DNA of 64,000 nt, from the NCBI GenBank assembly GCA_022703645.1, contig JAKLDG010000001.1, forward strand, positions 797,254-861,253, in the 5' to 3' direction. The position numbers and the translations under genes were made by a program. Shown piece by piece: positions 4,148 through 64,000 of this stretch. The stretch comes from Patescibacteria group bacterium (lineage in GTDB: Bacteria > Patescibacteriota > JACPGU01). Position 1 is the stretch's first letter, and the number at the start of each line of letters is the position of its first letter. Under the pieces are notes generated by a model. That model was given only the letters and a program-made list of their open reading frames with translations, did not search any database and was not told where the DNA came from.

Positions 4148-5116
4148 TTGAATTCAGTCTTTCTCATTCACGGCGAAGATGACTATCTTGCCCGTGAAAA
4201 ATTAAATTTTTTTAAACAAGGTTTCATAAAAAAATATGGTGACCTAAATATTTCTGTTTATAATAATGAAAATATTGATCTCGATGGAATTATGAATGAT
4301 GTAGTTTCAGCACCATTTCTAAGTGAAAAGAAAATGATAATTCTCGAGGGGATATTAACGGAATTAAAAAAAGATGACCGCAAAAAATTTATTGAATTAA
4401 TCAAGAAAGTTCCGGACACATCTGTTTTTTTTATTTATGAAAATAGAAATCTGGGCGATAAAAAAACTAAGAATAAGGATATCGATGAAATCATCAAAAG
4501 CTTAAGAGCAAAAAATATTTTCGAATTTAAAAAAATATCAGAATTTGATATTGCGAAATATATCCAACAAAAAATAAGGTCCAGCGAATACAAAATGGAT
4601 TCACGCGCTATTAACACACTTGCAACTCTCGTCGGACCAAACACAAGACAGATTGATAATGAAATCAAAAAACTTTTTGCATATAAATTCCAAGAAAAAG
4701 AAATTACCGCTGACGATGTGCTCAATCTAGTTAAGGCAAATGTTAACAAGGGAGTATTTGACCTGACAGATGCATTAGCAAAAAAGGATTTGAAGGAATC
4801 ACAGAAAATTATTAAACATCTTGTCGAGACAGGAGAAAATCCGATTTCCATTCTTGGCATGATCACTTTTCATTTTAGGAATCTATTGCTGGTAAAATTA
4901 GCGCAAGCACAAAAGTTGAGAGAAGGCGATGTGATTAAAGAAACCGGTATGCACCCATTTGTTTATAAAAAAACTACTTCACAATCTCGGGGTTTTGATA
5001 TGAATAAAATCAAAGAAATTTATCACAAAATATGCCAGACGGATTTTGAAATGAAAACCGGAGAAAAGGAACCGGAATTAGCAATTGATCTACTGATTGC
5101 TAAAATTTGTATGTAA
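4148..5116 (+). CDS. holA: DNA polymerase III delta subunit
   Basis: The N-terminus LIHGEDDYL... is the HolA signature, ~320 aa. The start (TTG at 4148) is uncertain. Confidence 0.75.
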   Translation: MNSVFLIHGEDDYLAREKLNFFKQGFIKKYGDLNISVYNNENIDLDGIMNDVVSAPFLSEKKMIILEGILTELKKDDRKKFIELIKKVPDTSVFFIYENRNLGDKKTKNKDIDEIIKSLRAKNIFEFKKISEFDIAKYIQQKIRSSEYKMDSRAINTLATLVGPNTRQIDNEIKKLFAYKFQEKEITADDVLNLVKANVNKGVFDLTDALAKKDLKESQKIIKHLVETGENPISILGMITFHFRNLLLVKLAQAQKLREGDVIKETGMHPFVYKKTTSQSRGFDMNKIKEIYHKICQTDFEMKTGEKEPELAIDLLIAKICM

Positions 5117-51270: not shown

Positions 51271-51466
51271 AATGGGCTTTAATTGAAAATGCGCGAACCT
51301 TTTTCAAATCTAAAAACTGAATTTCTGAATTGCATTTTGGGCGGAGCAATTCTGGGTGGGGGGCAGAATGCTCCGCCCAAAAACCCCGAATCCGAATTTT
51401 CCGCTCAATTTTCCGCCGCCGCTTCTTGCCGCAATTTAGGAAATTGCGGCTATTTTGAAATTTTGA
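51271..51466 (+). repeat. Inverted repeat A (left copy, ~196 bp) with GC-rich long hairpin plus terminator-like hairpin
   Basis: The reverse complement recurs at 54374..54569: ~150 nt identical apart from 1 mismatch. A 15-bp stem gggcggagcaattctg/cagaatgctccgccc has one bulge. The second hairpin ccgcaatttaggaaattgcgg is followed by a T-rich tail. Confidence 0.85.
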
Positions 51467-51473
51467 TTTTTAC

Positions 51474-52001
51474 CTATGTATTTTTTAAGACTTTCCCAAA
51501 AATATATGTATGTGTTACGGGTGGCTTTAAAAGTGTCCCCACAAATGGTTTTTTATTTAATTCTTTTATATTTAAAATTTTATAGTTATTAGCTTTATAA
51601 AATTTAATTGCCCAATCAGCCTTTTTCTGAGCTTCTAGCGCGATTGCATCTATTCCTAATCGTTTTGCTCTTTTTTCTATTTCAGAAAGTAACCCGCTTC
51701 CAACTCCTATTTTTTGATATTTTGGCAACACTTGAATCATACTTATCCAAAGAATACCATTCTCTTTAAGATAATATCTCATGGTGCCAACTATTTTATT
51801 ATTAATCGTAGCTATTAGAAATTTTCTCGTTTTTGCTGATTCTGCAAGATCTTTTTCTGATGCCTTTCCAACACAAAGCATCGTACATTCACTGGGTGTA
51901 AAAACGGACATGTATTGTTTGGCTTCTGAATTTTCTACTCTCGCAAATTCTTTATATTCAGATCCTTTTGGTTTTCTAAATTTTATTTTAATCATTTTCA
52001 T
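51474..52001 (-). CDS. GNAT-family N-acetyltransferase
   Basis: Start at MKMIKIKF (rc of 51999-52001). Acetyl-CoA motif ...LPKYQKIGVGSGLLSEIEKRAKRLGIDAIALEA. The upstream palindrome atttagccggctaaa (52091-52105) shares the half-site TTTAGCC with the PD40-gene operators. Confidence 0.7.
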   Translation of the reverse strand: MKMIKIKFRKPKGSEYKEFARVENSEAKQYMSVFTPSECTMLCVGKASEKDLAESAKTRKFLIATINNKIVGTMRYYLKENGILWISMIQVLPKYQKIGVGSGLLSEIEKRAKRLGIDAIALEAQKKADWAIKFYKANNYKILNIKELNKKPFVGTLLKPPVTHTYIFGKVLKNT

Positions 52002-52146
52002 TTTTATCCATTTTAAATATATCAGAACGACAGGAAAAAGTAAATAATTTAGGAAAATAAAAGTGATTTTTCTCTGTGGAAAAGTCATTTATTTAGCCGG
52101 CTAAACCCTAATATTGCACTCAAAATTTTGGCTTAATAAACGAATA

Positions 52147-52175
52147 TTGACTTTGCCGGCAAACTGTGCTATTAT
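52147..52175 (+). promoter_or_regulatory. Consensus sigma70 promoter TTGACT-17-TATTAT
   Basis: -35 at 52147-52152 and -10 at 52170-52175 with an exact 17-bp spacer. Confidence 0.6.
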
Positions 52176-52181
52176 GTATTT

Positions 52182-52262
52182 AGCATTCGTGAGGGCTTTG
52201 GCTCTCTCGCGGTCAAATGTTAAACTGCAGACGAGTGCTACCAGATTCTTTCTGGTTTTTTT
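52182..52262 (+). ncRNA. Candidate small RNA (~80 nt) defined by the consensus promoter and an intrinsic terminator; no protein-coding capacity
   Basis: Downstream of the TTGACT/TATTAT promoter. 7-bp closing stem gcattcg...cgagtgc (one G-U pair); terminator accagattctttctggt + TTTTTTT at 52240-52262. The 3' end abuts the stop of the convergent 52261..52755 gene. Confidence 0.4.
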
Positions 52263-52755
52263 ATTCTTCAAAATCAGTAGAGCTTAGTTTTCTTTTCTTG
52301 TTTCCGTTGGCATCAACAAACTCTATCCATGACGGGTACATGCTATAAAAGAATTTAACTCCGCCTTCAATTTCTTTTACAACCACTTTGATTCTCACTT
52401 CTTTTATAATAGCTACAAAAACATAATACCGAACCAACTTTGCTCTTTTCTCCCAGCGAGAATTTACTTTCTGACGAACTAACATATTTCTCTCGTCGTA
52501 TTCTTGTAGGGTGTGTGACTTCGTAATAATTTCAGGAACTAAATGTAATAGTCTCAATCGATTGTATTGTTCCACTTCGGATCTACCACGATTCCAAGAT
52601 TTGAAAAGCAGGTGTTCAAAACCTTCATTATTAAAATGCACAAAATCATCTAAATAAGGGCATTTAATTTTGCCAATGTTTTTGTACATTTCTTCGGCAT
52701 TTTCTCGTACCGTTTTGAACTTTTTCTCATCAAATTTTGGATTTTTGTTTTCCAT
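52261..52755 (-). CDS. Hypothetical protein (~164 aa) in IR-flanked cargo
   Basis: Start assumed at MENKNPKF (rc of 52753-52755); no motif recognised. Confidence 0.4.
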   Translation of the reverse strand: MENKNPKFDEKKFKTVRENAEEMYKNIGKIKCPYLDDFVHFNNEGFEHLLFKSWNRGRSEVEQYNRLRLLHLVPEIITKSHTLQEYDERNMLVRQKVNSRWEKRAKLVRYYVFVAIIKEVRIKVVVKEIEGGVKFFYSMYPSWIEFVDANGNKKRKLSSTDFEE

Positions 52756-52848
52756 GATTTTATTATAACATAAAAGTTGGCATGAGAATATCATTGTATT
52801 TTGCTCTGTTTTTGCATAATATGTAACTAATAAATAAACCAAAATTTT

Positions 52849-53895
52849 ATGACAGAAAAATTTGATCCAAGTAAACCAGAGTATAAGAAAGTCGAGGATT
52901 TACCAGAAGATCAACAACCACGATTTGAAAATGTTGAGGGCGGTGGTTTTGTAAATAAAGCCGCTCTTGAATTGTCCAAGGAAGATGCTCAAGAAAAAGC
53001 AACGAAAATTAATGAATGGGTAAACAGTAAAAGGAAAGGTAAATACAGTGAGCTTGATAATCCTGAATCTTCCATGGTATTTGAAAACAAGATAGAGACT
53101 TATGATATTCTTAAGCAAAGATTAGAAAAATTCGATGACATTACTGAAAGAGTTGAAAATTTAATATTGGAGGGGGGTGATTTTGATGTTTTGAGACCCG
53201 GATTTTGGAAGGATATGGTAAGAGCAGAAATGGAATTAGATCCGGCGAGAGGAGGTCTTTCTTGGAAAATAGCCATAGACATAGGCATAAGAGACTCTCA
53301 TATGTTTTTCTCTAGGATTATAGCACTTGATATATTCCATTCTTTGAAAAAAAAGGGATTACTTGACGATAATGATAAGAAACTGTTTTTAAAATCTATG
53401 CCAGTATTTGAGTTAGATAGCATATATACTAGGGGTCGTTCATTGTCACCCACAGCCCTTCTTGGCTACGAAAATGAGCTACTAGATTCTTTAGAAAAAT
53501 TATCACAGCGCGAGAATAGGGATGAAATAAATAAGGAGATTAATGAACGATCGCGCATTCATAGATCGATCTTTGACCTTCATAGATCATGTAATCGCCA
53601 TTTCTTTGAAGACTCTGGGTTCAGTGATATGGATGAATTTATTAAGGATGGAATGGGCGAAAAACAATTCAGGACCTATAATTCATTTAGATCGGGCATA
53701 GACAAGTCGCTTATAGAATATGAGGAACAAAATGAGTTTAAATATAGATCTGGACTCGCGGGCTGGGACGATTCTTATCCAAGAAACGCATTTACTCGTG
53801 GTATGGGCGATATAGATGTTTTTATTGATTTGGCAAAAGATGCTAAAAATAAAACTGAAAATGAAATAGAGCAAGATAAGAAAAAATCAAATTAG
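52849..53895 (+). CDS. Hypothetical protein (348 aa) in IR-flanked cargo
   Basis: Divergent from the 52261..52755 gene; acidic and charged; no motif recognised; hairpin terminator at ~53912-53935. Confidence 0.45.
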   Translation: MTEKFDPSKPEYKKVEDLPEDQQPRFENVEGGGFVNKAALELSKEDAQEKATKINEWVNSKRKGKYSELDNPESSMVFENKIETYDILKQRLEKFDDITERVENLILEGGDFDVLRPGFWKDMVRAEMELDPARGGLSWKIAIDIGIRDSHMFFSRIIALDIFHSLKKKGLLDDNDKKLFLKSMPVFELDSIYTRGRSLSPTALLGYENELLDSLEKLSQRENRDEINKEINERSRIHRSIFDLHRSCNRHFFEDSGFSDMDEFIKDGMGEKQFRTYNSFRSGIDKSLIEYEEQNEFKYRSGLAGWDDSYPRNAFTRGMGDIDVFIDLAKDAKNKTENEIEQDKKKSN

Positions 53896-54048
53896 CCAAT
53901 TGATAATTATAAAAGAGCGTCCAGCAGGGCGCTCTTTTCTTTCCCCTTAAATAGTCCTTCATCTCGCAGCTCCGCTGCGCCCCTCTAAATATAAAAACCT
54001 TGAATTTATATTCCTTAATAAAATTATATTTTTCTTATTATCATTTTT

Positions 54049-54255
54049 CTATTTTAATAGTTGGTCTACTTTTGTTCCGATAGCTTCAGCTAATTTCTCA
54101 ATGGTAGAAAGAGTGAGATTTCTCTTGCCATTTTCAATTCCACTAATAAAAGAACGATGAACTTTTAGTTTTCTCGCAATCGTTCCTTGTGATAATTTCT
54201 TTTTTGTTCTTATTTTTTTTAGATTTTTTCCTAATTGTGATGCTATTTTTGACAT
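54049..54255 (-). CDS. XRE-family helix-turn-helix transcriptional regulator (68 aa)
   Basis: LKKIRTKKKLSQGTIARKLKVHRSFISGIENGKRNLTLSTIEKLAEAIG is a canonical Cro/C1 HTH. Its promoter region has direct repeats ATAATGCAACA x2 (54270-54305, minus-strand reading). Confidence 0.85.
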   Translation of the reverse strand: MSKIASQLGKNLKKIRTKKKLSQGTIARKLKVHRSFISGIENGKRNLTLSTIEKLAEAIGTKVDQLLK

Positions 54256-54373
54256 ATAATTATTATCATTATAAATGTTGTTGCATTATTAGACAATGTT
54301 GCATTATAATGATACATGGATATTTGGGAGTCCTCATCATGCGCGCACGGGAGGGTGGGGCAAGCATGAAAAA

Positions 54374-54569
54374 ATCAAATTTCAAAATAGCGAGCCAATG
54401 GGATTGGCTCGCAAGAAGTGGCGGCGGAAAATTGAGCGGAAAATTCGGATTCGGGGTTTTTGGGCGGAGCATTCTGCCCCCCACCCAGAATTGCTCCGCC
54501 CAAAATGCAATTCAGAAATTCAGTTTTTAGATTTGAAAAAGGTTCGCGCATTTTCAATTAAAGCCCATT
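54374..54569 (-). repeat. Inverted repeat A' (right copy), reverse complement of 51271..51466
   Basis: ~150 nt identical to A. The terminal hairpin has a different sequence but keeps the fold (cgagccaatcccattggctcg versus ccgcaatttaggaaattgcgg). This is compensatory change conserving structure. Confidence 0.85.
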
Positions 54570-54714
54570 GAATTGGAGAGAGCGAAAAATTTGCGGGAAT
54601 TTTGACTCCTCGCTCGCCCCGAAGGCGGGCGGGGCGAGCGAGAATTGAAGCTGTAAAATCATAAGGTTCCAAGAAATTCCAAATGATGTTTTTATTTGAA
54701 ATCAGGCGGTTCGT
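54567..54714 (+). repeat. Inverted repeat B (left copy, 148 bp) abutting A', with GC-rich palindrome ctcgctcgcccc...ggggcgagcgag
   Basis: The reverse complement recurs at 56182..56328 with apparently perfect identity. It contains TGTAAAAT, an extended -10-like element oriented toward the recombinase gene. Confidence 0.85.
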
Positions 54715-54782
54715 GATAGCGGAGCTATCGTGAGCATTAGCTCACTCCAATTTTTTCCACAAGCGAAATAAATATAATCAAA

Positions 54783-56330
54783 ATGACCATGGACAAACAA
54801 AAACAACTACCACCCGATCAATGGTATCTCTACATTAGAAAAAGCACCGATGAAGAAGATCGTCAGGTTCTTTCTCTTGAAGCTCAAATGACCGAATTAA
54901 AAGAATTTGCCCAAAGGGAAAATGTAGAGATAACTGAAACATTTGTAGAAAAAAGAACCGCAAAAATACCCGGTCGCCCTGTTTTCAATGAAATGCTCTC
55001 TAAGCTGGAGAATAGCAATGGAAGAATTGGAATTTTAAGCTGGGCTCCCGACAGATTATCAAGAAATTCTGTCGATGGCGGAAAAATAATCTATCTTTTG
55101 GATATGGGTAGAATTGCCAGCTTAAAATTCCCTACCTTTGCTTTTGAAAATAATCCTTCGGGCAAATTCTTTTTGTCCATTTCTCTGTCTAACGCAAAAT
55201 ACTATGTAGATAATCTCGCGGAAAATGTAAGACGAGGCAATAGAGCAAAACTGCGTCGAGGCGAATGGCCAGGGCAAAAACCTTTTGGCTATATTTATGA
55301 CCACCGACTTAGAAACATTGTTCCCGACAAAAAGAAAGCGGAAAAAATCAAAATTATTTTTGAAGAATTTGCCACAGGCAAATACACTTACGAAACTATC
55401 TCTGATCGCATGATAGAATTTGGGATTAAAAGCAAGAGCGGGAAAAGAAAATCCAATCATGCGACAAACTATCTTTTAACTAATGCTCTCTACTGCGGAA
55501 TAATGAATTGGGATGGCGAGGCATACGAGGGAAAATACCAGCCGCTCATCTCAAAGCAATTGTTTTCAAAGGTTCAGGAAGTTCTACAAAACAAGAGCAG
55601 ACCAAGGCGAGGAGTCAGGGGCAACCACAATTTTCCTTTCTGCGGGCTTTTCAGGTGCTCTTGTGGCTCAATGTATACCGCTCAATGGGCTCGTGGCCAT
55701 GGCGGGCTTTACAGATACTACCGATGCACCAGAAAGCACGGAAAATGCTCCGAGCCGTATATCCAAGAAAAAGATCTGCAAAATAGAATCATAGAAAAGA
55801 TTAAAACAATTGCTTTGCCTGACGATTGGGCCGAGCCGATGTTAAATTACTTAGAACAAGAAAAAAAGAAAGAAGCCCAATCATCAAACGCTTTTGTCCA
55901 AGAGATCAACAAAAAACTTATTTCTACTCAAGATAAAATGGACAAACTTTTAGAACTTTATCTTGATAACATGCTTGACGAGGAAACTTACAAAATAAAA
56001 AAAGAAAGTCTCGTCAATCAAAAAATCGCCCTTAAGGACGAAAAACAAATTCTTGGGCAAAAGCGGATGAGCGGCTGGATCGAACCTACGATAGATTATA
56101 TTAAAACACTTGAGAAAGCCAAAAATATCAGCCCAGCGGTATCTCTCCCCGAGATTTCGCAATTTGTGGAAAAAATTGGAACGAACCGCCTGATTTCAAA
56201 TAAAAACATCATTTGGAATTTCTTGGAACCTTATGATTTTACAGCTTCAATTCTCGCTCGCCCCGCCCGCCTTCGGGGCGAGCGAGGAGTCAAAATTCCC
56301 GCAAATTTTTCGCTCTCTCCAATTCAATAA
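54783..56330 (+). CDS. Large serine recombinase (resolvase/invertase N-terminal catalytic domain, recombinase domain, zinc ribbon, coiled coil)
   Basis: N-terminus YLYIRKSTDEEDRQVLSLEAQ...RLSRNSVDGGKIIYLL (catalytic Ser region), Cys-rich CGLFRCSCG...YRCTRK, then coiled coil. The last 49 codons lie inside inverted repeat B'. Confidence 0.8.
   Translation: MTMDKQKQLPPDQWYLYIRKSTDEEDRQVLSLEAQMTELKEFAQRENVEITETFVEKRTAKIPGRPVFNEMLSKLENSNGRIGILSWAPDRLSRNSVDGGKIIYLLDMGRIASLKFPTFAFENNPSGKFFLSISLSNAKYYVDNLAENVRRGNRAKLRRGEWPGQKPFGYIYDHRLRNIVPDKKKAEKIKIIFEEFATGKYTYETISDRMIEFGIKSKSGKRKSNHATNYLLTNALYCGIMNWDGEAYEGKYQPLISKQLFSKVQEVLQNKSRPRRGVRGNHNFPFCGLFRCSCGSMYTAQWARGHGGLYRYYRCTRKHGKCSEPYIQEKDLQNRIIEKIKTIALPDDWAEPMLNYLEQEKKKEAQSSNAFVQEINKKLISTQDKMDKLLELYLDNMLDEETYKIKKESLVNQKIALKDEKQILGQKRMSGWIEPTIDYIKTLEKAKNISPAVSLPEISQFVEKIGTNRLISNKNIIWNFLEPYDFTASILARPARLRGERGVKIPANFSLSPIQ
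56182..56328 (-). repeat. Inverted repeat B' (right copy), reverse complement of 54567..54714; overlaps the 3' end of the large serine recombinase ORF
   Basis: A 147-bp apparently perfect match to rc(B); it encodes the recombinase C-terminal NRLISNKNIIWNFLEPYDFTASILARPARLRGERGVKIPANFSLSPIQ. Confidence 0.85.
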
Positions 56331-56550: not shown

Positions 56551-57120
56551 ATGAAAAAAGTAGCAATTTATGTTCGTTGCAGTACCGACAAGGGACAGGA
56601 TTTAGACACTCAAATACTGCCACTGAAAGAGTATGTCGCCAATCGTGGTTGGGAAGTCTACAAAATATATCAAGACTATGCTGAAAGCGGTTCAAAACAG
56701 GACAGAAAAGCCTTAAAAGAGCTAATGGATGATGCAAGACGACGCAAATTCCATGTTTGTGCCGTGGCACGCTGGGATAGATTTTCAAGGTCAACTCGGC
56801 AATTACTAGAATCATTGGAAACATTTAGAGCGGTTGGCGTAGATTTTGTCAGTCTGCATAATGCAACCGATACAACTACTCCCGAAGGAAAAATGTTTTT
56901 TACAATAATAGCTGGGTTTGCCGAATATGAAAGAGAACTGATAAGGAGTAGGGTTCTTGATGGTTTGAATAAGGCCAGAGCAAAAGGTAAAACTCTCGGC
57001 CGTCCAAAAGTTCCTATAGATATTCAAAAATTATTTCAACTAAAATCAGAAGGATTATCAATCCGAAAAATAGCAGAGGAATTGAAGGTTCCGAAATCAA
57101 CGGTGCAGAATTATATATGA
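56551..57120 (+). CDS. Small serine recombinase (Hin/Gin-like DNA invertase or resolvase) with C-terminal HTH
   Basis: 189 aa. VAIYVRCSTDKGQDLDTQ (catalytic Ser), ...VARWDRFSRS..., C-terminal LSIRKIAEELKVPKSTVQNYI HTH. Confidence 0.85.
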   Translation: MKKVAIYVRCSTDKGQDLDTQILPLKEYVANRGWEVYKIYQDYAESGSKQDRKALKELMDDARRRKFHVCAVARWDRFSRSTRQLLESLETFRAVGVDFVSLHNATDTTTPEGKMFFTIIAGFAEYERELIRSRVLDGLNKARAKGKTLGRPKVPIDIQKLFQLKSEGLSIRKIAEELKVPKSTVQNYI

Positions 57121-57150: not shown

Positions 57151-57179
57151 TTGACAATCATAGCGTTTTGTGGTATACT
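57151..57179 (+). promoter_or_regulatory. Perfect-spacing consensus sigma70 promoter TTGACA-17-TATACT
   Basis: -35 at 57151-57156 and -10 at 57174-57179. Confidence 0.65.
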
Positions 57180-57312
57180 GATTACATCAAAAATATCTTA
57201 TGAATATACCTTAACAATTCTACAAGAACTTGCTCACGAGGTGAGTCTTTATGATAAAATTTCTTTGTTAAAAATCTTGGGCGATATTTCGCCTGTATCC
57301 GAGGAGGATAAA

Positions 57313-57708
57313 ATGCCATACAAAGCAGCGACCACAGTATCAAAAAAGACAATAAGGGGTTCCGTTATCGTTGTAGCCCCGTCGGTAAGCAATATTGCAG
57401 ATAAAGTAGAAATTATTCTGGACAAGTATTACAAGAAAGCGGTTGGATGTGCCAACTATTGCTTTATTCCGCTTCAGATTCAGCAAATAAGTTTTCTGCG
57501 TGGTGGCTTTTATTGCGACATGCCTGCGTGTACGCAGTACAAGGCCGCCGTGATTTCTGCCGAGATAGACCCCTTCGTCCAAACAAACAAAAGGCACTGG
57601 AAGAAGTGGTTTGAAGAATTGATACAGGTAATCGGCGAAGAACTCGGTTGTTCGGAGCTGAAAATCACCTATACCGAGCTGGATGTGAAGGTGCTTCAAC
57701 AAGATTAA
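57313..57708 (+). CDS. Hypothetical Cys-containing small protein (131 aa) behind a strong promoter and SD
   Basis: Start moved to MPYKAATT..., preceded by gaggaggataaaATG. The track's longer ORF starts inside the promoter. No motif recognised. Confidence 0.45.
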   Translation: MPYKAATTVSKKTIRGSVIVVAPSVSNIADKVEIILDKYYKKAVGCANYCFIPLQIQQISFLRGGFYCDMPACTQYKAAVISAEIDPFVQTNKRHWKKWFEELIQVIGEELGCSELKITYTELDVKVLQQD

Positions 57709-57735
57709 AATCTCACAGAAGAGGGGTGGCTATTC

Positions 57736-57984
57736 ATGGCAATAAAATATCAGAAGTTGAGCGAGTTGAGCGAGAAGGCCAGAAAAATTCTCCTCAAAGC
57801 GAAACGGGGAGAAAAGGAGTTAGAGATAGATTATCAATCAGCAGGGCAGATAAGCAACTATCTTCATAACAAAGACTATCTGTCCGAGCAAGAGAGAGTA
57901 ATAATGGAAGAGGCTGATGAATACATGCGGAAGCAAGAAGATATACATATGCACCTCTGCGATACAGGCCAGTTTCCTTCCTGA
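57736..57984 (+). CDS. Hypothetical small protein (82 aa)
   Basis: SD-like gagggg upstream; charged helical composition. Confidence 0.35.
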   Translation: MAIKYQKLSELSEKARKILLKAKRGEKELEIDYQSAGQISNYLHNKDYLSEQERVIMEEADEYMRKQEDIHMHLCDTGQFPS

Positions 57985-58120
57985 TTTTTCAAAAACAACG
58001 CAACATGTGTTTTCGGAGGAATCCTTCAATTGGATTCCTTTTTTATTTCAAAAAATTTTAATTTTACGATAGCCTGCATCTAATAAAATAAAAAAACGGC
58101 TTAAATAACACAAAGTATTG

Positions 58121-58149
58121 TTGACAAATCTCAAAAAGTATGCTATAAT
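58121..58149 (+). promoter_or_regulatory. Perfect consensus sigma70 promoter TTGACA-17-TATAAT
   Basis: -35 at 58121-58126 and -10 at 58144-58149; downstream SD aaaggag before the 58225 ATG. Confidence 0.65.
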
Positions 58150-58224
58150 GGAAGTGTTTCTGATAATATTTTAATGAATAATATTTCGTACAATAAAAAA
58201 AAACTCAAAAAGGAGTGATAGCAA

Positions 58225-58629
58225 ATGACGAAAGTGGCTGACGATATTAATGAAATGGTTGAGACAAATTGTTGCAGATTCATAGTGCGACAGACGATGG
58301 ATGAACAAAAGGAAGACAGAGCCGTGGATACCGTAAAGGTTATACGTGCCATATACCACGAGCATATCAGACAGATTCAGCAGTCTATCCCAGACATTTC
58401 CGCAACAGCCGCCAAAGCACTGATTGAAAACCCAGATTCCGACTTTTTCTTGCCAGAAGGAGATATATGGTTTTTTGTTGAATGTTTACCAGACGATGAC
58501 CTAAAAAACCATTCTCCTGAAATACTGGCAGTAAAGATACTGGAATGGTCGGAAGAATTTATTAAAAATCACCCAAAAAAAACCAAGAAAGAAAACTGGT
58601 GGCGAAGGCTCTGCAAATTTTTCTCATAA
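58225..58629 (+). CDS. Hypothetical protein (134 aa)
   Basis: Strong promoter and SD; acidic protein, no motif recognised. Confidence 0.45.
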   Translation: MTKVADDINEMVETNCCRFIVRQTMDEQKEDRAVDTVKVIRAIYHEHIRQIQQSIPDISATAAKALIENPDSDFFLPEGDIWFFVECLPDDDLKNHSPEILAVKILEWSEEFIKNHPKKTKKENWWRRLCKFFS

Positions 58630-58734
58630 CCTTTATTCATGGACGACTCTTTTAAAAACGATATTTCATGCCGAGATATCGTTTTTTTATTGATACAAAT
58701 AGTTATGTGCTATAATAAAAAATAAAACATTATT

Positions 58735-59490
58735 ATGGATAAAAATAAAAAAGAACTTCCCATTTTTCTTCAAAATCCAAAAGTGAGAGGGATATCGAAA
58801 GAGGTTGTAGATTCTATTCCCAAAGATAAAAAAGTTTATCTAGTTGGCGGAATGGTCAGAAATGCTTTGTATTATCAGTATTTCAAGAAGATTCTGCCAT
58901 CGCGGGATTTTGATATTGCATTTGTCGGCAATAGACAGGGTTTTGTGAGCAATCTGATAAAAAAAGGATTCATATATGGAAAAACCAAGAAAAAAAATGA
59001 AATAGTATTAAAAAAATCCAAAATAAAAAAACCAAAAGCAATTCAAGATTATGTGGTTCTGGATATACATTCAGATGGAGACCAAGATATAAAAAAACAA
59101 ATAAAAGGAAAAGCGAATTTTACTATAGGCAGTTTTGCTTTAGAATTAAAGGATATTCTTTCTGAAGATTGGGCTGACAAAGTAATTACAACCCCACAAG
59201 CAGCCAAAGACTTAAAAAATAAACAAATTCGCGTTAATGCTTTGAATAAAGAACATCCTTTTCAAATCTTTTCATGCATACGATTGATGAGTTTGGGATT
59301 CAAAAAACCATCAAAGAAGGATATAGACAGGCTTCTGAAATTACTTTTTACAACAGACAATAAAGAAAGGTTTGATATAAATATCAAAAAAGTTTTTGAT
59401 TATGTAGGGGGAGAAAAGAAAGCTCGTATTTTACTAAAGAAATTAGGGATAAAAAAAGATATTTTTGATTTTAGTGTGATTCATAAATAG
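58735..59490 (+). CDS. Pol-beta-superfamily nucleotidyltransferase (CCA-adding/poly(A) polymerase head-domain-like; minimal NTase)
   Basis: YLVGGMVRNALYYQYFKKILPSRDFDIAF matches the [G][GS]x(n)DxD NTase signature (GGxVR(D/N)...DxD). It is only 251 aa with a Lys-rich tail and lacks the rest of a CCA enzyme. Confidence 0.5.
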   Translation: MDKNKKELPIFLQNPKVRGISKEVVDSIPKDKKVYLVGGMVRNALYYQYFKKILPSRDFDIAFVGNRQGFVSNLIKKGFIYGKTKKKNEIVLKKSKIKKPKAIQDYVVLDIHSDGDQDIKKQIKGKANFTIGSFALELKDILSEDWADKVITTPQAAKDLKNKQIRVNALNKEHPFQIFSCIRLMSLGFKKPSKKDIDRLLKLLFTTDNKERFDINIKKVFDYVGGEKKARILLKKLGIKKDIFDFSVIHK

Positions 59491-59856
59491 TTTTGTTATC
59501 TTGTCCCAAAAACCCCTCTAAAATTTAATAATTTTTTCTTCTGTTGAAGTTCCTAAAAAACACCGTCCAATATATAGTTGTTTTTGGGACAATATTTAAA
59601 GATGGGCTGAATAGTCCATAAAGTTTCTAAAAATACCGAACAAAATCCGAAAAATAGTTTAAAAAAGTTTCTACTCATACAAGGCCAATGCCCCAAAAAG
59701 TACCTCGGGGGGTGTTTCAAAAAAAATTCTTTTTTTATTTGACTTCACCCACATTAGACCCTTCTGTGTCTGGGGAAAATTTGGAAATAAAAATTGGTCA
59801 ATCAAAAAATTTTTCTATAATTTTTAAAAAAATACTTGACAAGTATAAAGTGAGAA

Positions 59857-60165
59857 CTATTTGATAGAGCTATCAAAATCTGTTGGCATATAGCCTGATG
59901 TGGTTGTACTGGTAACATTATTTACAATAATAGGCATCATTCTGTATGAGTCATTGGAGGTTGCCAATCCACTACTGGGTTGTTGTTCAAATGTTATGGT
60001 TGTTGGAATATGAAATCTATCTATACAACCAAAACTATCATCACAGGCCGAAGGCAGAACTAATGACCCTGCTGTCAGAATTGATAATGGAATCATAACC
60101 CAGCCATAATTTTCACTCCATACCGATAAACAATCAGCTTTAAAAATATTCTTTTTGTTGTACAT
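59857..60165 (-). CDS. Hypothetical protein (102 aa), last gene of the MazG-HAD-HAD operon
   Basis: 4-bp spacing to the upstream HAD gene. Confidence 0.35.
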   Translation of the reverse strand: MYNKKNIFKADCLSVWSENYGWVMIPLSILTAGSLVLPSACDDSFGCIDRFHIPTTITFEQQPSSGLATSNDSYRMMPIIVNNVTSTTTSGYMPTDFDSSIK

Positions 60166-60169
60166 ATCA

Positions 60170-60553
60170 TTATAAGTTACTATTGATAAACTTCTTTAAA
60201 TCTATTAAATCCCTCTTGTCTTTATCATAAAAATAAGTATTGATTCCAATGGATTGAGCACTCTTGACTGCGTCTGGACTGTGTTCAAAATAAATAACAT
60301 CTTGAGGCTCCAAATTAAAATGTTTCAATAAAGTTTTGTAATATTCTGGTTCTGATTTTTCAGGATTATGCTTTAAGGTAAAAATTTCATAAGGAATTTT
60401 ATCAAAACCAAGCTTTTTAAATTCTTCATCATTTGCATTTGTCAGAACTATCTTTTTATTTAGATAATCTTCCAACAAGTTATGCATTTCATCAAATAAA
60501 CCATTTTCGTTTACCAATGTTTCCCACGCATCAACTAAAATTGTTTTCTGCAT
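60170..60553 (-). CDS. HAD-like hydrolase (short form, degenerate motif I)
   Basis: ...IYFEHSPDAVKSAQSIGINTYFY resembles HAD motifs III-IV; 127 aa. Confidence 0.4.
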   Translation of the reverse strand: MQKTILVDAWETLVNENGLFDEMHNLLEDYLNKKIVLTNANDEEFKKLGFDKIPYEIFTLKHNPEKSEPEYYKTLLKHFNLEPQDVIYFEHSPDAVKSAQSIGINTYFYDKDKRDLIDLKKFINSNL

Positions 60554-60564
60554 GTTGCTCCTTC

Positions 60565-61164
60565 CTAATTGATTAATCCTATTCTTATTAAATCGCCTCT
60601 TAATTGTTTGGGGTCTTTAAAAAATATTGTCTTCATGCCTATTTTCTCTGCTGGTTCAAGATTATGTTCTAGGTCATCAACAAAAATACATTCTTCTGGT
60701 TTCATTCCACTTACCTCAACTGCCATCTGATAAATTTTGGGGTCTGGCTTGTGTACCCCAACTAAAGCCGAAACAATCGTGCTATCAAAATAAGAATCAA
60801 TTTTAAACTTGTCATTCAGAAATGGCCACCACTCTCTTGTTTGGTCTGACAATAAAATTAATTTTATTCCATTTGTTCTTAATTCTTTGCAAAGCTCTAT
60901 CATACCTTCATTAGGCTCAAAGAAATCCAAAAGAATCTCTTTTAATTTTCGCCAATCTTCTTTTATCCCAATTTCAGATAAGTAGTCTTTCCAAAACATT
61001 TCCTCTGAAATTTTACCAGAAAAATATTCTTTGTAATATTTTAAGAAAGAGTCTTTCGCCTTTTCAAACCCTATACCAAACCTATCTCCTGCATAATCCC
61101 AAAATTTCCAGATTCCTCTGTTCAAAAAAACTCCACCTAAATCTAAAATTATAGTTTTAATCAT
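60565..61164 (-). CDS. HAD-superfamily hydrolase (subfamily IA-like phosphatase)
   Basis: IILDLGGV (motif I-like), LLSDQ (motif II), KPDPKIY (motif III Lys), FVDD (motif IV). Confidence 0.65.
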   Translation of the reverse strand: MIKTIILDLGGVFLNRGIWKFWDYAGDRFGIGFEKAKDSFLKYYKEYFSGKISEEMFWKDYLSEIGIKEDWRKLKEILLDFFEPNEGMIELCKELRTNGIKLILLSDQTREWWPFLNDKFKIDSYFDSTIVSALVGVHKPDPKIYQMAVEVSGMKPEECIFVDDLEHNLEPAEKIGMKTIFFKDPKQLRGDLIRIGLIN

Positions 61165-61478
61165 TTCCAGCTTCTTTTATTATTTATTTCTTCTTTATCC
61201 CTAAATGCTTTTTCTAAATCAATATCAAACTTATTAGCTATCGCACATATAAATATTAGGGTATCGGCAAGTTCCTCTTCAACTGAACCAAACTTTGAAT
61301 TTAAATCAATTTTGTTGATATTCCCATGCTTTCGGATTGCTTTGAAAAGTTCCCCAACCTCCTCTCCTAACATCAGACAATTATTTAAAACATCTTTTGA
61401 AAAACCACGCTCATTTTCCATATCCAGAACATATTTTTGCAAATCTTTAAGGGTGGGTTGTTGGTTTAGGTGTAGCAT
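61161..61478 (-). CDS. MazG-like nucleotide pyrophosphohydrolase
   Basis: LGEEVGELFKAIRK...EELADTLIFICAIA: the all-alpha NTP-PPase EExxE/ExxD motifs; overlaps the next gene by 4 nt. Confidence 0.7.
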   Translation of the reverse strand: MLHLNQQPTLKDLQKYVLDMENERGFSKDVLNNCLMLGEEVGELFKAIRKHGNINKIDLNSKFGSVEEELADTLIFICAIANKFDIDLEKAFRDKEEINNKRSWK

Positions 61479-61482
61479 AATT

Positions 61483-61941
61483 TTAAATATTAAGTATTTT
61501 TCTAATCTCTACTGCCTTATCATGATTTTGCGTTGTAATATGCCTATCTCCTACTGAATAAAAAAGAGAGTTGGACAATGATATTAAATTACCAATAACT
61601 TTGTTTTTGTCTCCTTCATTAATGATTTTGAAAAGTTTTTTACATCTGGCAGCTTTATACACCGAAGAAAATTTACTAGCAACTCGTCTTAATTGTTTGG
61701 AGGCATGTTTGTAAAACGAAATCACTTCTTCGTTACCAAATGGTGTTGTTATTGGCATAATTGGATTAGTATAAACATTGCTGAAAAACATCATTTCTTC
61801 ATCAATCTCTCCGATAGCTTTTTTATATTCAATATATGGTTTTATATAAAATTCATTAATAATCAAGCCAACAACATAAACTACAATTCCGCCAATAATT
61901 GTTAAAGATGATGTCAAAACAATCTTTTCTATCTCTATCAT
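61483..61941 (-). CDS. Membrane-anchored hypothetical protein (152 aa)
   Basis: N-terminal TM helix; no motif. Confidence 0.35.
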   Translation of the reverse strand: MIEIEKIVLTSSLTIIGGIVVYVVGLIINEFYIKPYIEYKKAIGEIDEEMMFFSNVYTNPIMPITTPFGNEEVISFYKHASKQLRRVASKFSSVYKAARCKKLFKIINEGDKNKVIGNLISLSNSLFYSVGDRHITTQNHDKAVEIRKILNI

Positions 61942-61957
61942 AATATTATGCTTATTA

Positions 61958-62656
61958 TTATCTTTCTAATCCACAGGCCAAAACATCATTACTATCATCA
62001 AGTTGCTTAAAGGTCATTTTTGTGTAGTATCTTTGCCCACTAATATTTTCGTAATGAATAGTTATTAATATTTCTTTTTGTCTTTCTAATAATATTTCCA
62101 TCATTTTGTTTCCATCGTCTTCACATTTCATTCCCTTGGCTATGCTACAATCCCACTTTAATGCAAAATGGGTATGCCCACCCTTTGGTTCTATAAAGGT
62201 TTTATGTGGTGCAATGAGAAAAGAGTTTTCACCTTCAGGGATAACTATTTTGTCCATATAAACATTTTTTGCTATTCCTCTGCCAATATTTTTAAAGTAA
62301 AACAAGCCCGTGTCTTTTTCATAATTTAAAACTACAAAAGGAGCTCTTTCATAATCTAAACTTTTTCTTGTTATATCTTTCAAATCAAAAGTTTCCTTTG
62401 AATACCAAAAAACAATAACTGCAGTAATCCAAACAAATATAGCTGAAAACTTGTCATTTATGGTTATATTACTTATTTCAGGAAAAAAATATTTTATAAT
62501 TTGTTCACTATAAATTATTAAAAAAACACCAACAAAACAGATGGTCACCAAGAATTGTTTATATCTTTTTCTCCATAAAAAATCTAGCGCTCTAATTAAT
62601 ACATTGAGTTCCTTATTGCTATATTTATCCCAATCTTTTTTAAGATTCACAAACAT
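61958..62656 (-). CDS. Membrane hypothetical protein (232 aa)
   Basis: Two TM helices near the N-terminus; no motif. Confidence 0.35.
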   Translation of the reverse strand: MFVNLKKDWDKYSNKELNVLIRALDFLWRKRYKQFLVTICFVGVFLIIYSEQIIKYFFPEISNITINDKFSAIFVWITAVIVFWYSKETFDLKDITRKSLDYERAPFVVLNYEKDTGLFYFKNIGRGIAKNVYMDKIVIPEGENSFLIAPHKTFIEPKGGHTHFALKWDCSIAKGMKCEDDGNKMMEILLERQKEILITIHYENISGQRYYTKMTFKQLDDSNDVLACGLER

Positions 62657-62798
62657 ATTAATCTCCTTTAATTATTCGCATTTTTTCAAGTGCATGTTCT
62701 TTATCCATAATGATGATTATTTTATAACTACAATATAACAAAAAATCAGCTAAAAATCAACCAAAAAACAGGTCGCGAAGTTCCTGTTTTTTGGTTTA

Positions 62799-63056
62799 CT
62801 AATTTACTACAAGTTCCTTGATTTTTCTCTTGGCTTCATCATCTTCATTACTTAATCTATGCATTTCTTCTTTTGCTTCTTCTAGCTGGTTAGAGGAGAA
62901 AGTTTTTATTATTTCTGGCGGCTTTGCTTCTAAATCTACTAAATTTATTCCCAAGGTAGACATTACCTGAAGAACATACCTTGTCTTTTCATAAGGTTCT
63001 GTCCCATATCTAGGGTCTATATAGCTGTTGTTTTGTTCTTGTTGGTCTTGTTCCAT
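62799..63056 (-). CDS. Hypothetical acidic small protein (85 aa)
   Basis: ORF followed by a 14-bp perfect inverted-repeat hairpin (aaccaaaaaacagg...cctgttttttggtt) at 62760-62797. Confidence 0.35.
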   Translation of the reverse strand: MEQDQQEQNNSYIDPRYGTEPYEKTRYVLQVMSTLGINLVDLEAKPPEIIKTFSSNQLEEAKEEMHRLSNEDDEAKRKIKELVVN

Positions 63057-63060
63057 AGTA

Positions 63061-63552
63061 TTAGTGTAAACTTTGTTTACTATCTATTTCTAATTTTAAT
63101 AACTCTATCCTCGCTTTCTTGTATTGGTTGTTGGGGAATTGCATTACTTCTTTTGGCTGTTTTCCTCTTAAATCATATATAGCCAAAGATTCATTCATTT
63201 GAGCAACCAGCATAAAATTGTTTTTATTATAGATTTTTGGAAGTTCCTGTAAATTTGGTTCTTTACTTTTTAGTTCCTTGCCTTGTGATTTCTGCTTGAT
63301 TAGCTTTTTAAAGTCTTTTTTTGCTTCTCCCATCTTCTCTATCGGATATTCTTTGATTATTTTTTCTTTTTCACCTGAACTGTCAGTGATTTTTATTTTA
63401 CTTTCGGCATATATGGTGTGAAAAGTGAGCGCCCCAACTTCTGTCCCAGCCGTCATTTTTATCCCATTATAATGAAGGGCGAACTCTTTTCCACCTACCT
63501 CTTTCCAGAAAGGAACTTTGCTATCATAGCCATAGGGATTGATGTTTTTCAT
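63061..63552 (-). CDS. Hypothetical protein (163 aa)
   Basis: 4-bp spacing to the downstream gene; Lys-rich; no motif. Confidence 0.35.
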   Translation of the reverse strand: MKNINPYGYDSKVPFWKEVGGKEFALHYNGIKMTAGTEVGALTFHTIYAESKIKITDSSGEKEKIIKEYPIEKMGEAKKDFKKLIKQKSQGKELKSKEPNLQELPKIYNKNNFMLVAQMNESLAIYDLRGKQPKEVMQFPNNQYKKARIELLKLEIDSKQSLH

Positions 63553-64000
63553 ATGATTATTTTAGTTCCTGTGCTATATCGCTTATTACTATGATAGCGG
63601 AAATTAAGACTATAGTTAATAGATATTTAATTGGTTAGTTCCTTTACTTTTGCTTTTTGCTACGCTTTTATCTTTTATCTATTACTATTTTGCGTTTTCT
63701 TGTCTCTTTGAACCTTGTCTTACAGATTGAACCCTTAATTGACATTAATAAGAAAATGCATTTTTTTCTTACACTTTTTATTATTTTGTGTTCTCTAGTT
63801 TCTCTGTACCTTGGGTTATAGGTTAAGGTGGCGAACAAACTATTAAAAATTTCGGGGTTTATGTATTTTTGGTTGGCTATCTCCTGTGGGCGTGAAAATT
63901 TTCAATATTGTTTTGAGAATTACTTAAAAATGATTTAGAAAAATGCATGCGGTTTAGAGGTTATTCTGCAAAATAATAAAATCAATATTTTTTTAAAGAT

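What the first reader, a model, noticed from the sequence alone, without database searches (positions are those of the whole stretch)
51474..54305. Cargo of the IR-flanked segment: GNAT acetyltransferase, two unknown proteins (164 and 348 aa) and a 68-aa XRE repressor with direct-repeat operator. Candidate toxin/defence-type module under phase-variable control
Gene content (GNAT, XRE HTH, unknowns, sRNA) resembles toxin-antitoxin and defence-island cassettes (GNAT toxins of the AtaT/TacT type pair with small DNA-binding antitoxins). The XRE promoter region carries direct repeats ATAATGCAACA x2 (54270-54305, minus-strand reading) overlapping TATAAT-like hexamers. The GNAT upstream region has the perfect palindrome atttagccggctaaa (52091-52105), suggesting dedicated regulation. 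The 164-aa and 348-aa divergent genes have no recognisable motifs, so they are possible novel effectors.
Basis: inference. Interest (0 to 1): 0.55.

Follow-up and report, generated by a model that had tools for sequence, protein, structure and literature searches.

The report
Variable cargo of a recombinase island
The four genes are the swappable cargo of a small mobile DNA island, driven by a large serine recombinase, in a tiny-genome (Patescibacteria) bacterium. They are not a recognisable toxin-antitoxin or defence module, but the island belongs to a widespread family with an unusual double inverted-repeat layout that appears undescribed.

Summary
The interpretation mostly fails.

**The cargo genes**
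- The GNAT is a generic acetyltransferase (RimI/YpeA/Naa50-like). It has no TacT/AtaT similarity and no adjacent antitoxin.
- The "unknown" 164-aa protein is a stand-alone LPD3-fold protein. Its relatives sit in core operons of other Patescibacteria.
- The 348-aa protein has a conserved ~40-aa N-terminal motif shared by 78 proteins with unrelated C-termini.
- The 68-aa XRE is an optional regulator of the island, not a partner of the GNAT.

**The island**
- The segment is the cargo cassette of a 5,058-bp island (51271-56328) with an AAT core at both ends. A 515-aa large serine recombinase (LSR) drives it.
- Eighty-two related loci show the same layout: [arm-cargo-arm'][arm-LSR-arm'].
- These relatives usually abut a tRNA gene.
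- Their cargo is entirely different, and it includes EcoRI-type R-M, AbiE and viperin-like genes.

**Phase variation**
- Nothing supports phase-variable control of the cargo. All promoters are internal, and XRE lies in the same orientation in 14 of 14 relatives.
- Only the recombinase unit is seen in both orientations, and assembler ambiguity cannot be excluded there.

The cargo is ordinary. The island architecture and the N-terminal motif family are the interesting parts.

The parts
51271..51429 (+). Left IR arm A of the cargo cassette. The AAT core is at 51271-51273. The conserved recombinase half-site TAATTGAAAATGCGCGAACC is at 51280-51299. A GC-rich hairpin lies at about 51339-51378.
51428..51471 (+). 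Inward-facing terminator-like hairpin plus T-run at the inner end of arm A
51474..52088 (-). GNAT N-acetyltransferase. It is 204 aa from the first ATG; alternative starts give 175 or 173 aa. Generic RimI/YpeA/Naa50-like.
52092..52105 (.). 14-bp perfect palindrome TTTAGCCGGCTAAA; frequency is at chance level
52147..52266 (+). Candidate small RNA antisense to the 164-aa/GNAT intergenic region. It has a promoter-like site at 52147-52175, a structured ~85-nt transcript (z = -4.86) and a terminator hairpin with a U-run.
52261..52755 (-). 164-aa stand-alone LPD3-fold protein, member of a conserved ~160-aa Patescibacteria family
52849..53895 (+). 348-aa all-alpha protein with a conserved N-terminal motif (residues ~4-44, 52858-52980). 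Its central domain is shared with a few remote homologues.
54049..54255 (-). 68-aa XRE/HTH_3 regulator, the last cargo gene next to arm A'
54264..54314 (-). XRE promoter and putative operator. It has the direct repeat ATAATGCAACA x2 (54279-54289, 54297-54307) and the outer 11-nt IR TATCATTATAA. -35 is TTGTCT and -10 is TATAAT, 12 nt before the ATG.
54390..54412 (-). Inward-facing terminator-like hairpin at the inner end of arm A'. Its sequence differs from the left-arm hairpin but its shape and flanks are the same.
54411..54569 (-). Right IR arm A' of the cargo cassette
54567..54714 (+). IR arm B. With A' it forms an internal inverted copy of the junction expected on circularisation (B'.A).
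54783..56330 (+). 515-aa large serine recombinase (Resolvase + Recombinase + Zn_ribbon_recom)
56181..56328 (-). IR arm B', which is the last 49 codons of the recombinase gene. The AAT core at 56326-56328 is the right end of the island.

Best explanation
Region 51474-54305 is the variable cargo cassette of a 5,058-bp site-specific integrative island (51271-56328) in a Patescibacteria chromosome.

**How the island is built**
- A 515-aa large serine recombinase (LSR) inserts and moves the island through a short core (AAT here).
- Arm A carries the element-side half-site next to that core.
- The cassette is bounded by 159-nt inverted arms. Each arm consists of a recombinase half-site, GC-rich hairpins and an inward-facing terminator.
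- This layout should let the cargo be expressed from its own promoters whatever lies outside.

**What the cargo is**
- It is hitch-hiking accessory DNA, not a coupled toxin-antitoxin pair.
- It holds a generic GNAT acetyltransferase co-oriented with a stand-alone LPD3-fold protein.
- A possible antisense small RNA lies between those two genes.
- It also holds a 348-aa helical protein of a family defined by a shared N-terminal motif.
- The 68-aa XRE protein probably represses its own leaderless-type promoter through the repeat-rich operator. It may also control the outward promoter facing the recombinase.

**Shown:** gene identities, repeats, the family-wide architecture, variable cargo and tRNA targeting in relatives.

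**Inferred:** recombination at the AAT core, XRE autoregulation, terminator insulation, and the biochemical roles of the cargo proteins.
For: **Island ends and junctions**
- IR pairs A/A' and B/B' abut with a 3-nt overlap.
- AAT lies at both island ends.
- The reverse complement of A'.B equals the junction B'.A expected on circularisation.

**Recombinase**
- Its domain set is Resolvase + Recombinase + Zn_ribbon_recom.
- It matches PHROG 'integrase' at 1e-76.
- CcrB and XisF are the nearest NCBIfam models.

**Sibling loci, LSR 51-79% identical**
- IRs flank the LSR gene in 38 of 42 loci.
- A tRNA gene abuts the LSR 3' end in 42 of 51.
- A cargo IR pair abuts B in 12 of 20.
- In L076 and L077 the CGAACC motif lies 5 nt farther from the core in arm A than in the tRNA T-arm. 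This is the known LSR attP-versus-attB geometry (Rutherford et al. 2013, from my own knowledge).

**Cargo is variable**
- The GNAT, LPD3-like and 348-aa proteins have no homologue in the 82 sibling loci.
- Sibling cargo ranges from R-M and AbiE to ProRS and nucleotide kinases.
- XRE sits in the same place and orientation in 14 of 14 cases, with different cargo each time.

**Individual cargo genes**
- GNAT is generic.
- PADLOC gives nothing significant for the three non-XRE proteins.
- Relatives of the LPD3-like protein lie in hrcA-grpE-dnaK-dnaJ, rplJL/rpoB and type III R-M neighbourhoods, never next to a GNAT.
Against: - No empty site or excised circle was observed.
- The window's island does not abut a tRNA gene, unlike most relatives.
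- The role of the internal inverted att copy is unexplained.
- Sibling cassettes are rich in defence genes, so a novel defence role for this cargo cannot be excluded.
- Neither structural search gave a function.
Confidence: 0.7

Rival explanations
1. The GNAT is a TacT/AtaT-type toxin and the XRE protein is its antitoxin, forming a type II toxin-antitoxin module.
For: - The GNAT fold is present.
- XRE has weak matches to HipB/HigA-type antitoxin models, all below their cut-offs.
Against: - The genes are about 2 kb apart, separated by two other genes and a convergent terminator.
- No RHH/DUF1778 gene is present.
- No GNAT-toxin chain appears among 46 PDB hits up to E=10.
- XRE recurs in sibling islands without any GNAT.
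Confidence: 0.04
2. The cargo is a novel conflict or defence module. The 348-aa protein would be an effector of a polymorphic family addressed by its N-terminal motif, acting with the LPD3-fold protein and the GNAT.
For: - 78 proteins share the ~40-aa N-terminal motif. The 65 longer than 130 aa fall into 40 unrelated C-terminal clusters.
- LPD3 was defined in phage and conjugative-element polyvalent proteins.
- Sibling cassettes carry R-M, AbiE, GmrSD and viperin-like genes.
Against: - There are no significant PADLOC hits.
- The closest full-length relative of the 348-aa protein sits among aminoacyl-tRNA synthetase and RecO genes.
- Relatives of the LPD3-like protein sit in core operons.
- No immunity-like partner gene and no secretion system is linked to it.
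Confidence: 0.18
3. The cassette is an invertible, phase-variable segment. The recombinase would flip it between the arms, redirecting the outward promoter next to XRE either towards the recombinase or towards the beta-CASP gene.
For: - Near-perfect IRs have recombination cores at their outer edges.
- The adjacent recombinase unit appears in both orientations. L009 differs from the window, and 6 of 48 sibling loci have the tRNA upstream of the LSR.
- By eye, a rightward promoter-like site (TTGCAT-18-TATAAT) lies beside the XRE operator (sequence).
Against: - No flipped cargo was seen. XRE is in the same orientation in 14 of 14 cases, and cargo genes point the same way in most siblings.
- All cargo promoters are internal.
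- Where the arms of flipped-recombinase contigs can be compared they are perfect repeats, and in L009 the 148-nt repeat is longer than the assembly k-mer of 141. The orientation may therefore be the assembler's choice.
Confidence: 0.12

Closest known systems
Staphylococcal/enterococcal cassette chromosome elements (SCC; CcrA/CcrB large serine recombinases)
   Same: - A small chromosomal cassette moved by an LSR.
- A short core repeated at both ends.
- Insertion at the 3' end of a conserved gene.
- Highly variable cargo, including R-M.
- CcrB is the best NCBIfam match for the recombinase, though far below its cut-off.
   Different: - One recombinase instead of a pair.
- tRNA targets in most relatives.
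- 150-200-nt inverted arms around both the cargo and the recombinase gene.
- An internal inverted copy of the att junction.
Tycheposons of Prochlorococcus (Hackl et al., bioRxiv 10.1101/2020.12.28.424599)
   Same: - Cargo-carrying integrative elements in streamlined genomes.
- They insert at tRNA genes.
- Cargo varies between nutrient genes and defence.
- Elements sit side by side at tRNA clusters (compare L094 and L112).
   Different: - Tycheposons mostly use tyrosine recombinases and often carry replication modules.
- The paper text read here describes no double inverted-repeat layout.
Hin/Gin/Cin invertible segments and the yeast 2-micron FLP/FRT inverted repeats
   Same: Inverted repeats with the crossover at their outer edge, next to or around the recombinase gene. 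Two unique segments are separated by an inverted pair.
   Different: - The enzyme here is an integrase-type LSR, not a small invertase or FLP.
- No coding or promoter switch across the cargo boundary is evident.
- Inversion of the cargo was not observed.
TacT/AtaT/KacT GNAT toxin with RHH (DUF1778) antitoxin
   Same: A small GNAT-fold protein on a mobile element, with a small DNA-binding protein nearby.
   Different: No adjacent antitoxin gene, no operon, and no sequence similarity beyond the general fold.
LPD3 domain of phage and conjugative-element polyvalent proteins (Pfam PF18798; Iyer et al. 2017, PMC5512222)
   Same: Borderline Pfam match (26.5 against 27 bits). The top four viral fold matches are LPD3 proteins, with probability 0.96-1.0.
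   Different: A stand-alone ~160-aa protein, 53-68% identical to the window protein across the 43 aligned relatives, which include members of several Patescibacteria phyla. It usually sits in core-gene neighbourhoods. The paper calls the functions of the LPD domains elusive.

Membership tests
Type II TA, GNAT toxin (TacT/AtaT/KacT/ItaT) + antitoxin | GNAT-fold toxin of about 160-180 aa | tested here: met
   Acetyltransf_1 at 1.4e-13; 173-204 aa depending on the start codon
Type II TA, GNAT toxin (TacT/AtaT/KacT/ItaT) + antitoxin | Antitoxin gene (RHH/DUF1778) immediately upstream in the same operon | tested here: not met
   The upstream gene is the 164-aa LPD3-like protein, 172 nt away. XRE is about 2 kb away in its own unit.
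Type II TA, GNAT toxin (TacT/AtaT/KacT/ItaT) + antitoxin | Sequence relationship to characterised GNAT toxins | tested here: not met
   None among 46 PDB GNAT matches up to E=10. The best matches are YjcF-like, a streptothricin acetyltransferase, Naa50, YpeA and RimI.
Type II TA, GNAT toxin (TacT/AtaT/KacT/ItaT) + antitoxin | Toxicity by acetylation of aminoacyl-tRNA, neutralised by the partner | not testable with these tools
   Needs expression assays
Known anti-phage defence systems (PADLOC-DB 2.0) | Match of the effector proteins to a defence-system model | tested here: not met
   GNAT and the 348-aa protein: none. The 164-aa protein: E=0.016 only. XRE: generic HTH and 'control protein' models.
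Large-serine-recombinase integrative element | Recombinase with Resolvase + Recombinase + zinc-ribbon domains at one end | tested here: met
   PHROG 'integrase' at 1e-76
Large-serine-recombinase integrative element | Short identical core at both ends, with different flanks | tested here: met
   AAT at 51271-51273 and 56326-56328. The core is AATGC in L077.
Large-serine-recombinase integrative element | Same element type at different chromosomal sites with different cargo | tested here: met
   82 sibling loci, with eight different tRNA targets among the 42 that abut a tRNA gene, and unrelated cargo
Large-serine-recombinase integrative element | Empty target site or excised circle for this copy | not tested
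   The collection scans were exhausted. The circle junction cannot be told apart from the internal inverted copy.
Phase-variable invertible segment (Hin/Gin type) | Inverted repeats with a recombinase nearby | tested here: met
Phase-variable invertible segment (Hin/Gin type) | Both orientations present in populations | tested here: inconclusive
   Cargo: only one orientation seen (14 of 14 XRE). Recombinase unit: both orientations (L009; 6 of 48 loci), but the repeats exceed the assembly k-mer.
Phase-variable invertible segment (Hin/Gin type) | A promoter or coding sequence split by the inversion boundary | tested here: not met
   All four cargo genes keep their upstream regions inside the segment, and the arms end in inward-facing terminators.
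LPD3 domain (PF18798) | Profile match and fold | tested here: met
   26.5 bits against a cut-off of 27. The model has pLDDT 89. The top four BFVD matches are LPD3 proteins, with TM 0.41-0.49.
Restriction-modification controller (C) protein | Small HTH protein next to the R-M genes it controls | tested here: not met
   PADLOC 'Control_protein' at 1.6e-17, but no R-M genes in the cassette
Polymorphic toxin/effector family | Conserved N-terminal module with unrelated C-terminal domains | tested here: met
   78 proteins; 65 longer than 130 aa fall into 40 C-terminal clusters
Polymorphic toxin/effector family | Adjacent immunity gene and a linked export system | tested here: not met
   No conserved partner was seen in the window or next to the closest relative, P0122. 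An export link cannot be tested here.

The most novel reading that the evidence does not exclude
Two readings remain open.

1. The layout [arm-cargo-arm'][arm-recombinase-arm'], with its internal inverted att copy, may be an undescribed type of mobile element in Patescibacteria. One LSR would then both integrate the island at tRNA genes and rearrange or exchange IR-bounded cargo cassettes. This would work like an integron, but use serine-recombinase chemistry.

2. Within this cassette, the 348-aa protein may belong to a polymorphic effector family addressed by a previously unnoticed ~40-aa N-terminal motif.
Probability: 0.2. Interest if true: 0.75.

Novelty: new variant of a known kind. Interest (0 to 1): 0.45.

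Why it matters
Mobile elements of Candidate Phyla Radiation bacteria are barely described, yet these organisms have minimal genomes and depend on gene flow.

- **A common vehicle for accessory genes.** A compact, recognisable island family carries R-M, AbiE and viperin-like genes as well as housekeeping-like genes. It has one recombinase, two pairs of ~150-nt arms and a tRNA target. Such a family would explain how accessory and defence genes move in these lineages.
- **A search handle.** The arm motif, the LSR and the adjacent tRNA together give a signature for finding such cargo.
- **A mechanistic question.** The conserved internal inverted att copy raises a question about serine integrases. 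It could serve in inversion, autoregulation or cassette exchange.
- **The cargo itself.** The practical result is negative. It should not be listed as a toxin-antitoxin or phase-variable defence locus.

Tried and rejected
- **Solved structures, 164-aa model:** no match. Best E was 0.09 and TM 0.17.
- **Solved structures, 348-aa model:** only designed helical repeat proteins, all E > 0.2. The model is of moderate quality, pLDDT 67.5.
- **Word-indexed homologue search for the 348-aa protein:** found only itself. The full HMMER scan was needed.
- **Viral contig scan with the recombinase:** nothing.
- **Genome-collection scan with the beta-CASP neighbour, seeking an empty site by synteny:** the nearest relative is 50% identical, too distant to use.
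- **Rfam:** no family reaches its gathering score. The best sub-threshold match is MicX, 31 against 75 bits, over the 348/XRE terminator region.
- **Consensus RNA fold of the arms:** weak (-4.6 kcal/mol), because the hairpins differ between elements. An arm-encoded RNA therefore remains untested.
- **Small 189-aa serine recombinase at 56551-57120 as the invertase:** rejected as a family component. It has no counterpart in the 82 sibling loci.
- **Palindrome upstream of the GNAT as a regulatory site:** rejected as evidence, because its frequency is at chance level.
Full report
**1. The observation**

- GNAT: 51474-52088(-)
- 164-aa ORF: 52261-52755(-)
- 348-aa ORF: 52849-53895(+)
- XRE: 54049-54255(-)

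Pfam confirms the GNAT (Acetyltransf_1, 1.4e-13) and the XRE protein (HTH_3, 6.6e-16).

The 11-mer ATAATGCAACA occurs exactly twice in the window, 18 nt apart, at 54279 and 54297.
- It lies within a promoter-like site, TTGTCT-17-TATAAT, whose -10 ends 12 nt before the XRE start codon.
- An 11-nt inverted repeat brackets it.
- The operator reading is therefore reasonable.

The GNAT-proximal palindrome is 14 bp (52092-52105). It is not more than chance: the window has 9 such palindromes, against 7.3 +/- 2.6 simulated.

**2. The setting**

*Repeats and junctions.* Two inverted-repeat (IR) pairs abut each other.
- A/A' (51271-51429 / 54411-54569; 159 nt, 99%) encloses the four genes.
- B/B' (54567-54714 / 56181-56328; 148 nt, 100%) encloses a 515-aa large serine recombinase (LSR). 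B' is its last 49 codons.
- A' and B overlap by 3 nt.
- The same AAT sits at 51271-51273 and at 56326-56328.
- The reverse complement of A'.B is exactly the junction B'.A that would form if 51271-56328 (5,058 bp) circularised.

*Source.* NCBI labels the cargo proteins as coming from a 'Patescibacteria group bacterium'.
- Their longest contigs are about 866 kb, and that contig's ends overlap by 150 nt within arm A.
- An independent NCBI assembly has the whole region contiguous and identical.
- In three other samples the cargo assembles as a separate short contig. Two of these contigs end inside both arms and the third inside the left arm only.

**3. This is a family of islands**

Proteins 75-79% identical to the recombinase lie in the same layout at other chromosomal sites.
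- L076 has an XRE gene divergent from the LSR, a 149-nt IR around the LSR, and a tRNA-Lys gene abutting the right end.
- L077 has both IR pairs and a tRNA-Leu gene at the right end.
- The L077 cargo is a peptidase S51, a NUDIX protein, AbiEii, an AbiEi-like protein and an XRE protein.

A metagenome scan returned 80 more loci, 51-78% identical.

| Feature | Loci with the feature | Loci where it could be judged |
|---|---|---|
| IR pair flanking the LSR gene | 38 | 42 |
| tRNA gene abutting the LSR 3' end | 42 | 51 |
| Second IR pair abutting B | 12 | 20 |

- The abutting tRNAs are Val, Leu, Arg, Lys, Ile, Ala, Tyr and Trp.
- The second IR pair encloses 1.3-5 kb of cargo and overlaps B by 2-28 nt.
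- Next to the core, arm A carries a conserved block, TGGGCTATAATTGAAAATGCGCGAACC.
- In L076 and L077 its CGAACC lies 5 nt farther from the core than the CGAACC of the tRNA T-arm.
- That offset is the known difference between attP-type and attB-type half-sites of serine integrases (Rutherford et al. 2013, from my own knowledge).
- The outer junctions therefore behave as attL and attR, and the internal A'.B as an inverted attP copy.

The window's copy is one of the 9 of 51 loci not next to a tRNA gene.

**4. The cargo is variable**

None of the GNAT, 164-aa or 348-aa proteins has a homologue in the 82 sibling loci. Fifty ORFs from 18 sibling cassettes were scanned.

*Defence-type genes:*
- an EcoRI-type R-M pair (1e-142 and 9e-139)
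- AbiEi/AbiEii
- GmrSD_N
- SocA/Panacea
- seven radical-SAM proteins, three of them viperin-like

*Housekeeping-like genes:*
- prolyl-tRNA synthetase (x2)
- nucleotide kinases
- Ham1
- OMP decarboxylase
- pilins

It does not identify this particular cargo.

**5. The individual genes**

*GNAT.*
- Its best matches are RimI, YpeA, Naa50 and streptothricin/aminoglycoside acetyltransferases, all far below family cut-offs.
- No tRNA-acetylating toxin appears among 46 PDB matches up to E=10.
- PADLOC gives nothing.

*164-aa protein.*
- Pfam LPD3 scores 26.5 bits against a cut-off of 27.
- More than 160 clusters of ~160-aa relatives exist in several Patescibacteria phyla. The 43 that were aligned are 53-68% identical to it.
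- The AlphaFold model is confident (pLDDT 89).
- It has no PDB neighbour.
- Its top four viral matches are LPD3 proteins.
- The paper that defined the LPD domains calls their functions elusive.

Relatives of the 164-aa protein occur in these neighbourhoods, never next to a GNAT:
- hrcA-grpE-dnaK-[X]-dnaJ
- hrcA-grpE-[X]
- rplJ-rplL-[X]
- near rpoB
- between type III mod and res

This looks like a conserved cellular protein, not an island-specific effector.

*348-aa protein.*
- It is unique at word level.
- A full HMMER scan finds 85 relatives.
- Seventy-eight proteins in this set, the 348-aa protein among them, carry its N-terminal ~40 aa, with consensus kFnPs.peYKkVeDLP.e.q..F.nve.GGFV.keA.
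- The 65 longer than 130 aa fall into 40 unrelated C-terminal clusters.
- Some of these carry DUF4116 repeats.
- Seven relatives share its central helical domain.
- One paralogue lies elsewhere in the same genome.
- The closest full-length relative sits between housekeeping genes.
- The model is all-alpha with pLDDT 67.5 and has no structural neighbour.

*XRE.*
- It is present in 12 of 41 sibling loci that have enough upstream sequence.
- In 14 of 14 cases it is the last cargo gene beside A', on the strand opposite the LSR.
- In siblings it often heads the cargo operon.
- It belongs to the island, not to the GNAT.

**6. Phase variation**
- Every cargo gene has its upstream region inside the cassette.
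- Both arms end in inward-facing hairpin-plus-T-run elements. Their stems differ in sequence but not in shape.
- No flipped cargo was found.
- The recombinase unit is seen flipped in L009 (same strain, another sample).
- It is also flipped in 6 of 48 sibling loci, where the tRNA lies upstream of the LSR.
- In L009 the repeat (148 nt) exceeds the assembly k-mer of 141. In the two sibling contigs where both arms can be compared, they are perfect repeats. The orientation could therefore be the assembler's choice.
- The verdict is open for the recombinase unit and unsupported for the cargo.

**7. Conclusion**
- The finding is the accessory cassette of an LSR island.
- The toxin-antitoxin and phase-variation readings fail their tests.
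- A novel conflict role for the 348-aa protein remains possible but unproven.
- The conserved double-IR architecture, with its internal inverted att copy, is the unusual feature. I found no description of it in the paper searches I ran, though these were few and cover open-access literature only.

Noticed in passing
window 51271-56328; L076, L077, L078-L157: A family of Patescibacteria LSR islands has a conserved layout: [arm A-cargo-arm A'][arm B-recombinase-arm B']. The internal A'.B is an inverted copy of the att junction. The purpose of that internal copy is unexplained. It could be an inversion partner, an autoregulatory operator like the Tn3 res site, or a spare attP.
   Followed up: partly
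window 52858-52980 (residues ~4-44 of the 348-aa protein); P0122-P0205: A ~40-aa N-terminal motif (FNPxxPEYKKVEDLPxExQxxFxNVEGGGFVRKEA) is shared by 78 proteins. The 65 longer than 130 aa fall into 40 unrelated C-terminal clusters. Two proteins carry the motif twice. No Pfam family matched the 348-aa protein or seven of ten relatives scanned, and the other three matched only DUF4116 repeats.
   Followed up: partly
L011 8001-8498; L160 6001-6489; L012 8001-8489; L163 6001-6483; L010 8001-8513: Relatives of the 164-aa LPD3-like protein recur inside or beside the hrcA-grpE-dnaK-dnaJ operon (2 of 5 contexts) and near rplJL/rpoB (2 of 5). One lies between type III mod and res. This hints at a conserved cellular or stress-related role.
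   Followed up: partly
window 52147-52266 (+): A candidate ~85-nt small RNA lies between the 164-aa and GNAT genes, antisense to them. It has a promoter-like site (TTGACT-17-TATTAT with a TG upstream of the -10), a strong fold (-32 kcal/mol, z = -4.86) and a terminator hairpin with a U-run. No relatives are available to test conservation.
   Followed up: partly
window 51428-51450 (+) and 54390-54412 (-): The inner ends of the two cargo arms carry 10-bp hairpins of different sequence. They have the same shape and the same flanking T-rich tail. This suggests selection for the structure (inward-facing terminators) and not for the sequence.
   Followed up: no
window 56551-57120 and 57151-64000; L009 10185-11912: Directly right of the island lie a 189-aa small serine recombinase and a run of ORFs mostly without family matches, with G+C falling to 29-33% at 59-64 kb. 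A second LSR (575 aa) is called just beyond the window end in L009. The island may sit at the edge of a larger acquired region.
   Followed up: no
window 54268-54273 and 54772-54777: Read by eye from the sequence (the XRE site was also picked up by the promoter scan), both the XRE and recombinase genes have a perfect TATAAT only 12 and 5 nt before their ATG, with no Shine-Dalgarno sequence. This suggests leaderless or near-leaderless mRNAs.
   Followed up: no
L076 and L077 right junctions: The CGAACC motif of the conserved arm block lies exactly 5 nt farther from the core than the CGAACC of the target tRNA T-arm, in two elements with different tRNA targets. This matches the attP-versus-attB spacing rule of serine integrases.
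   Followed up: partly
L095 1-2012 / 5039-7050: One metagenome contig carries a 2,012-nt perfect terminal inverted duplication centred on the island repeats. It is most likely an assembly palindrome caused by the IRs.
   Followed up: no
L094/L147 10492; L112 8027-13357: Extra arm motifs and second island copies lie beside neighbouring tRNA genes. These islands therefore accumulate side by side at tRNA clusters.
   Followed up: no
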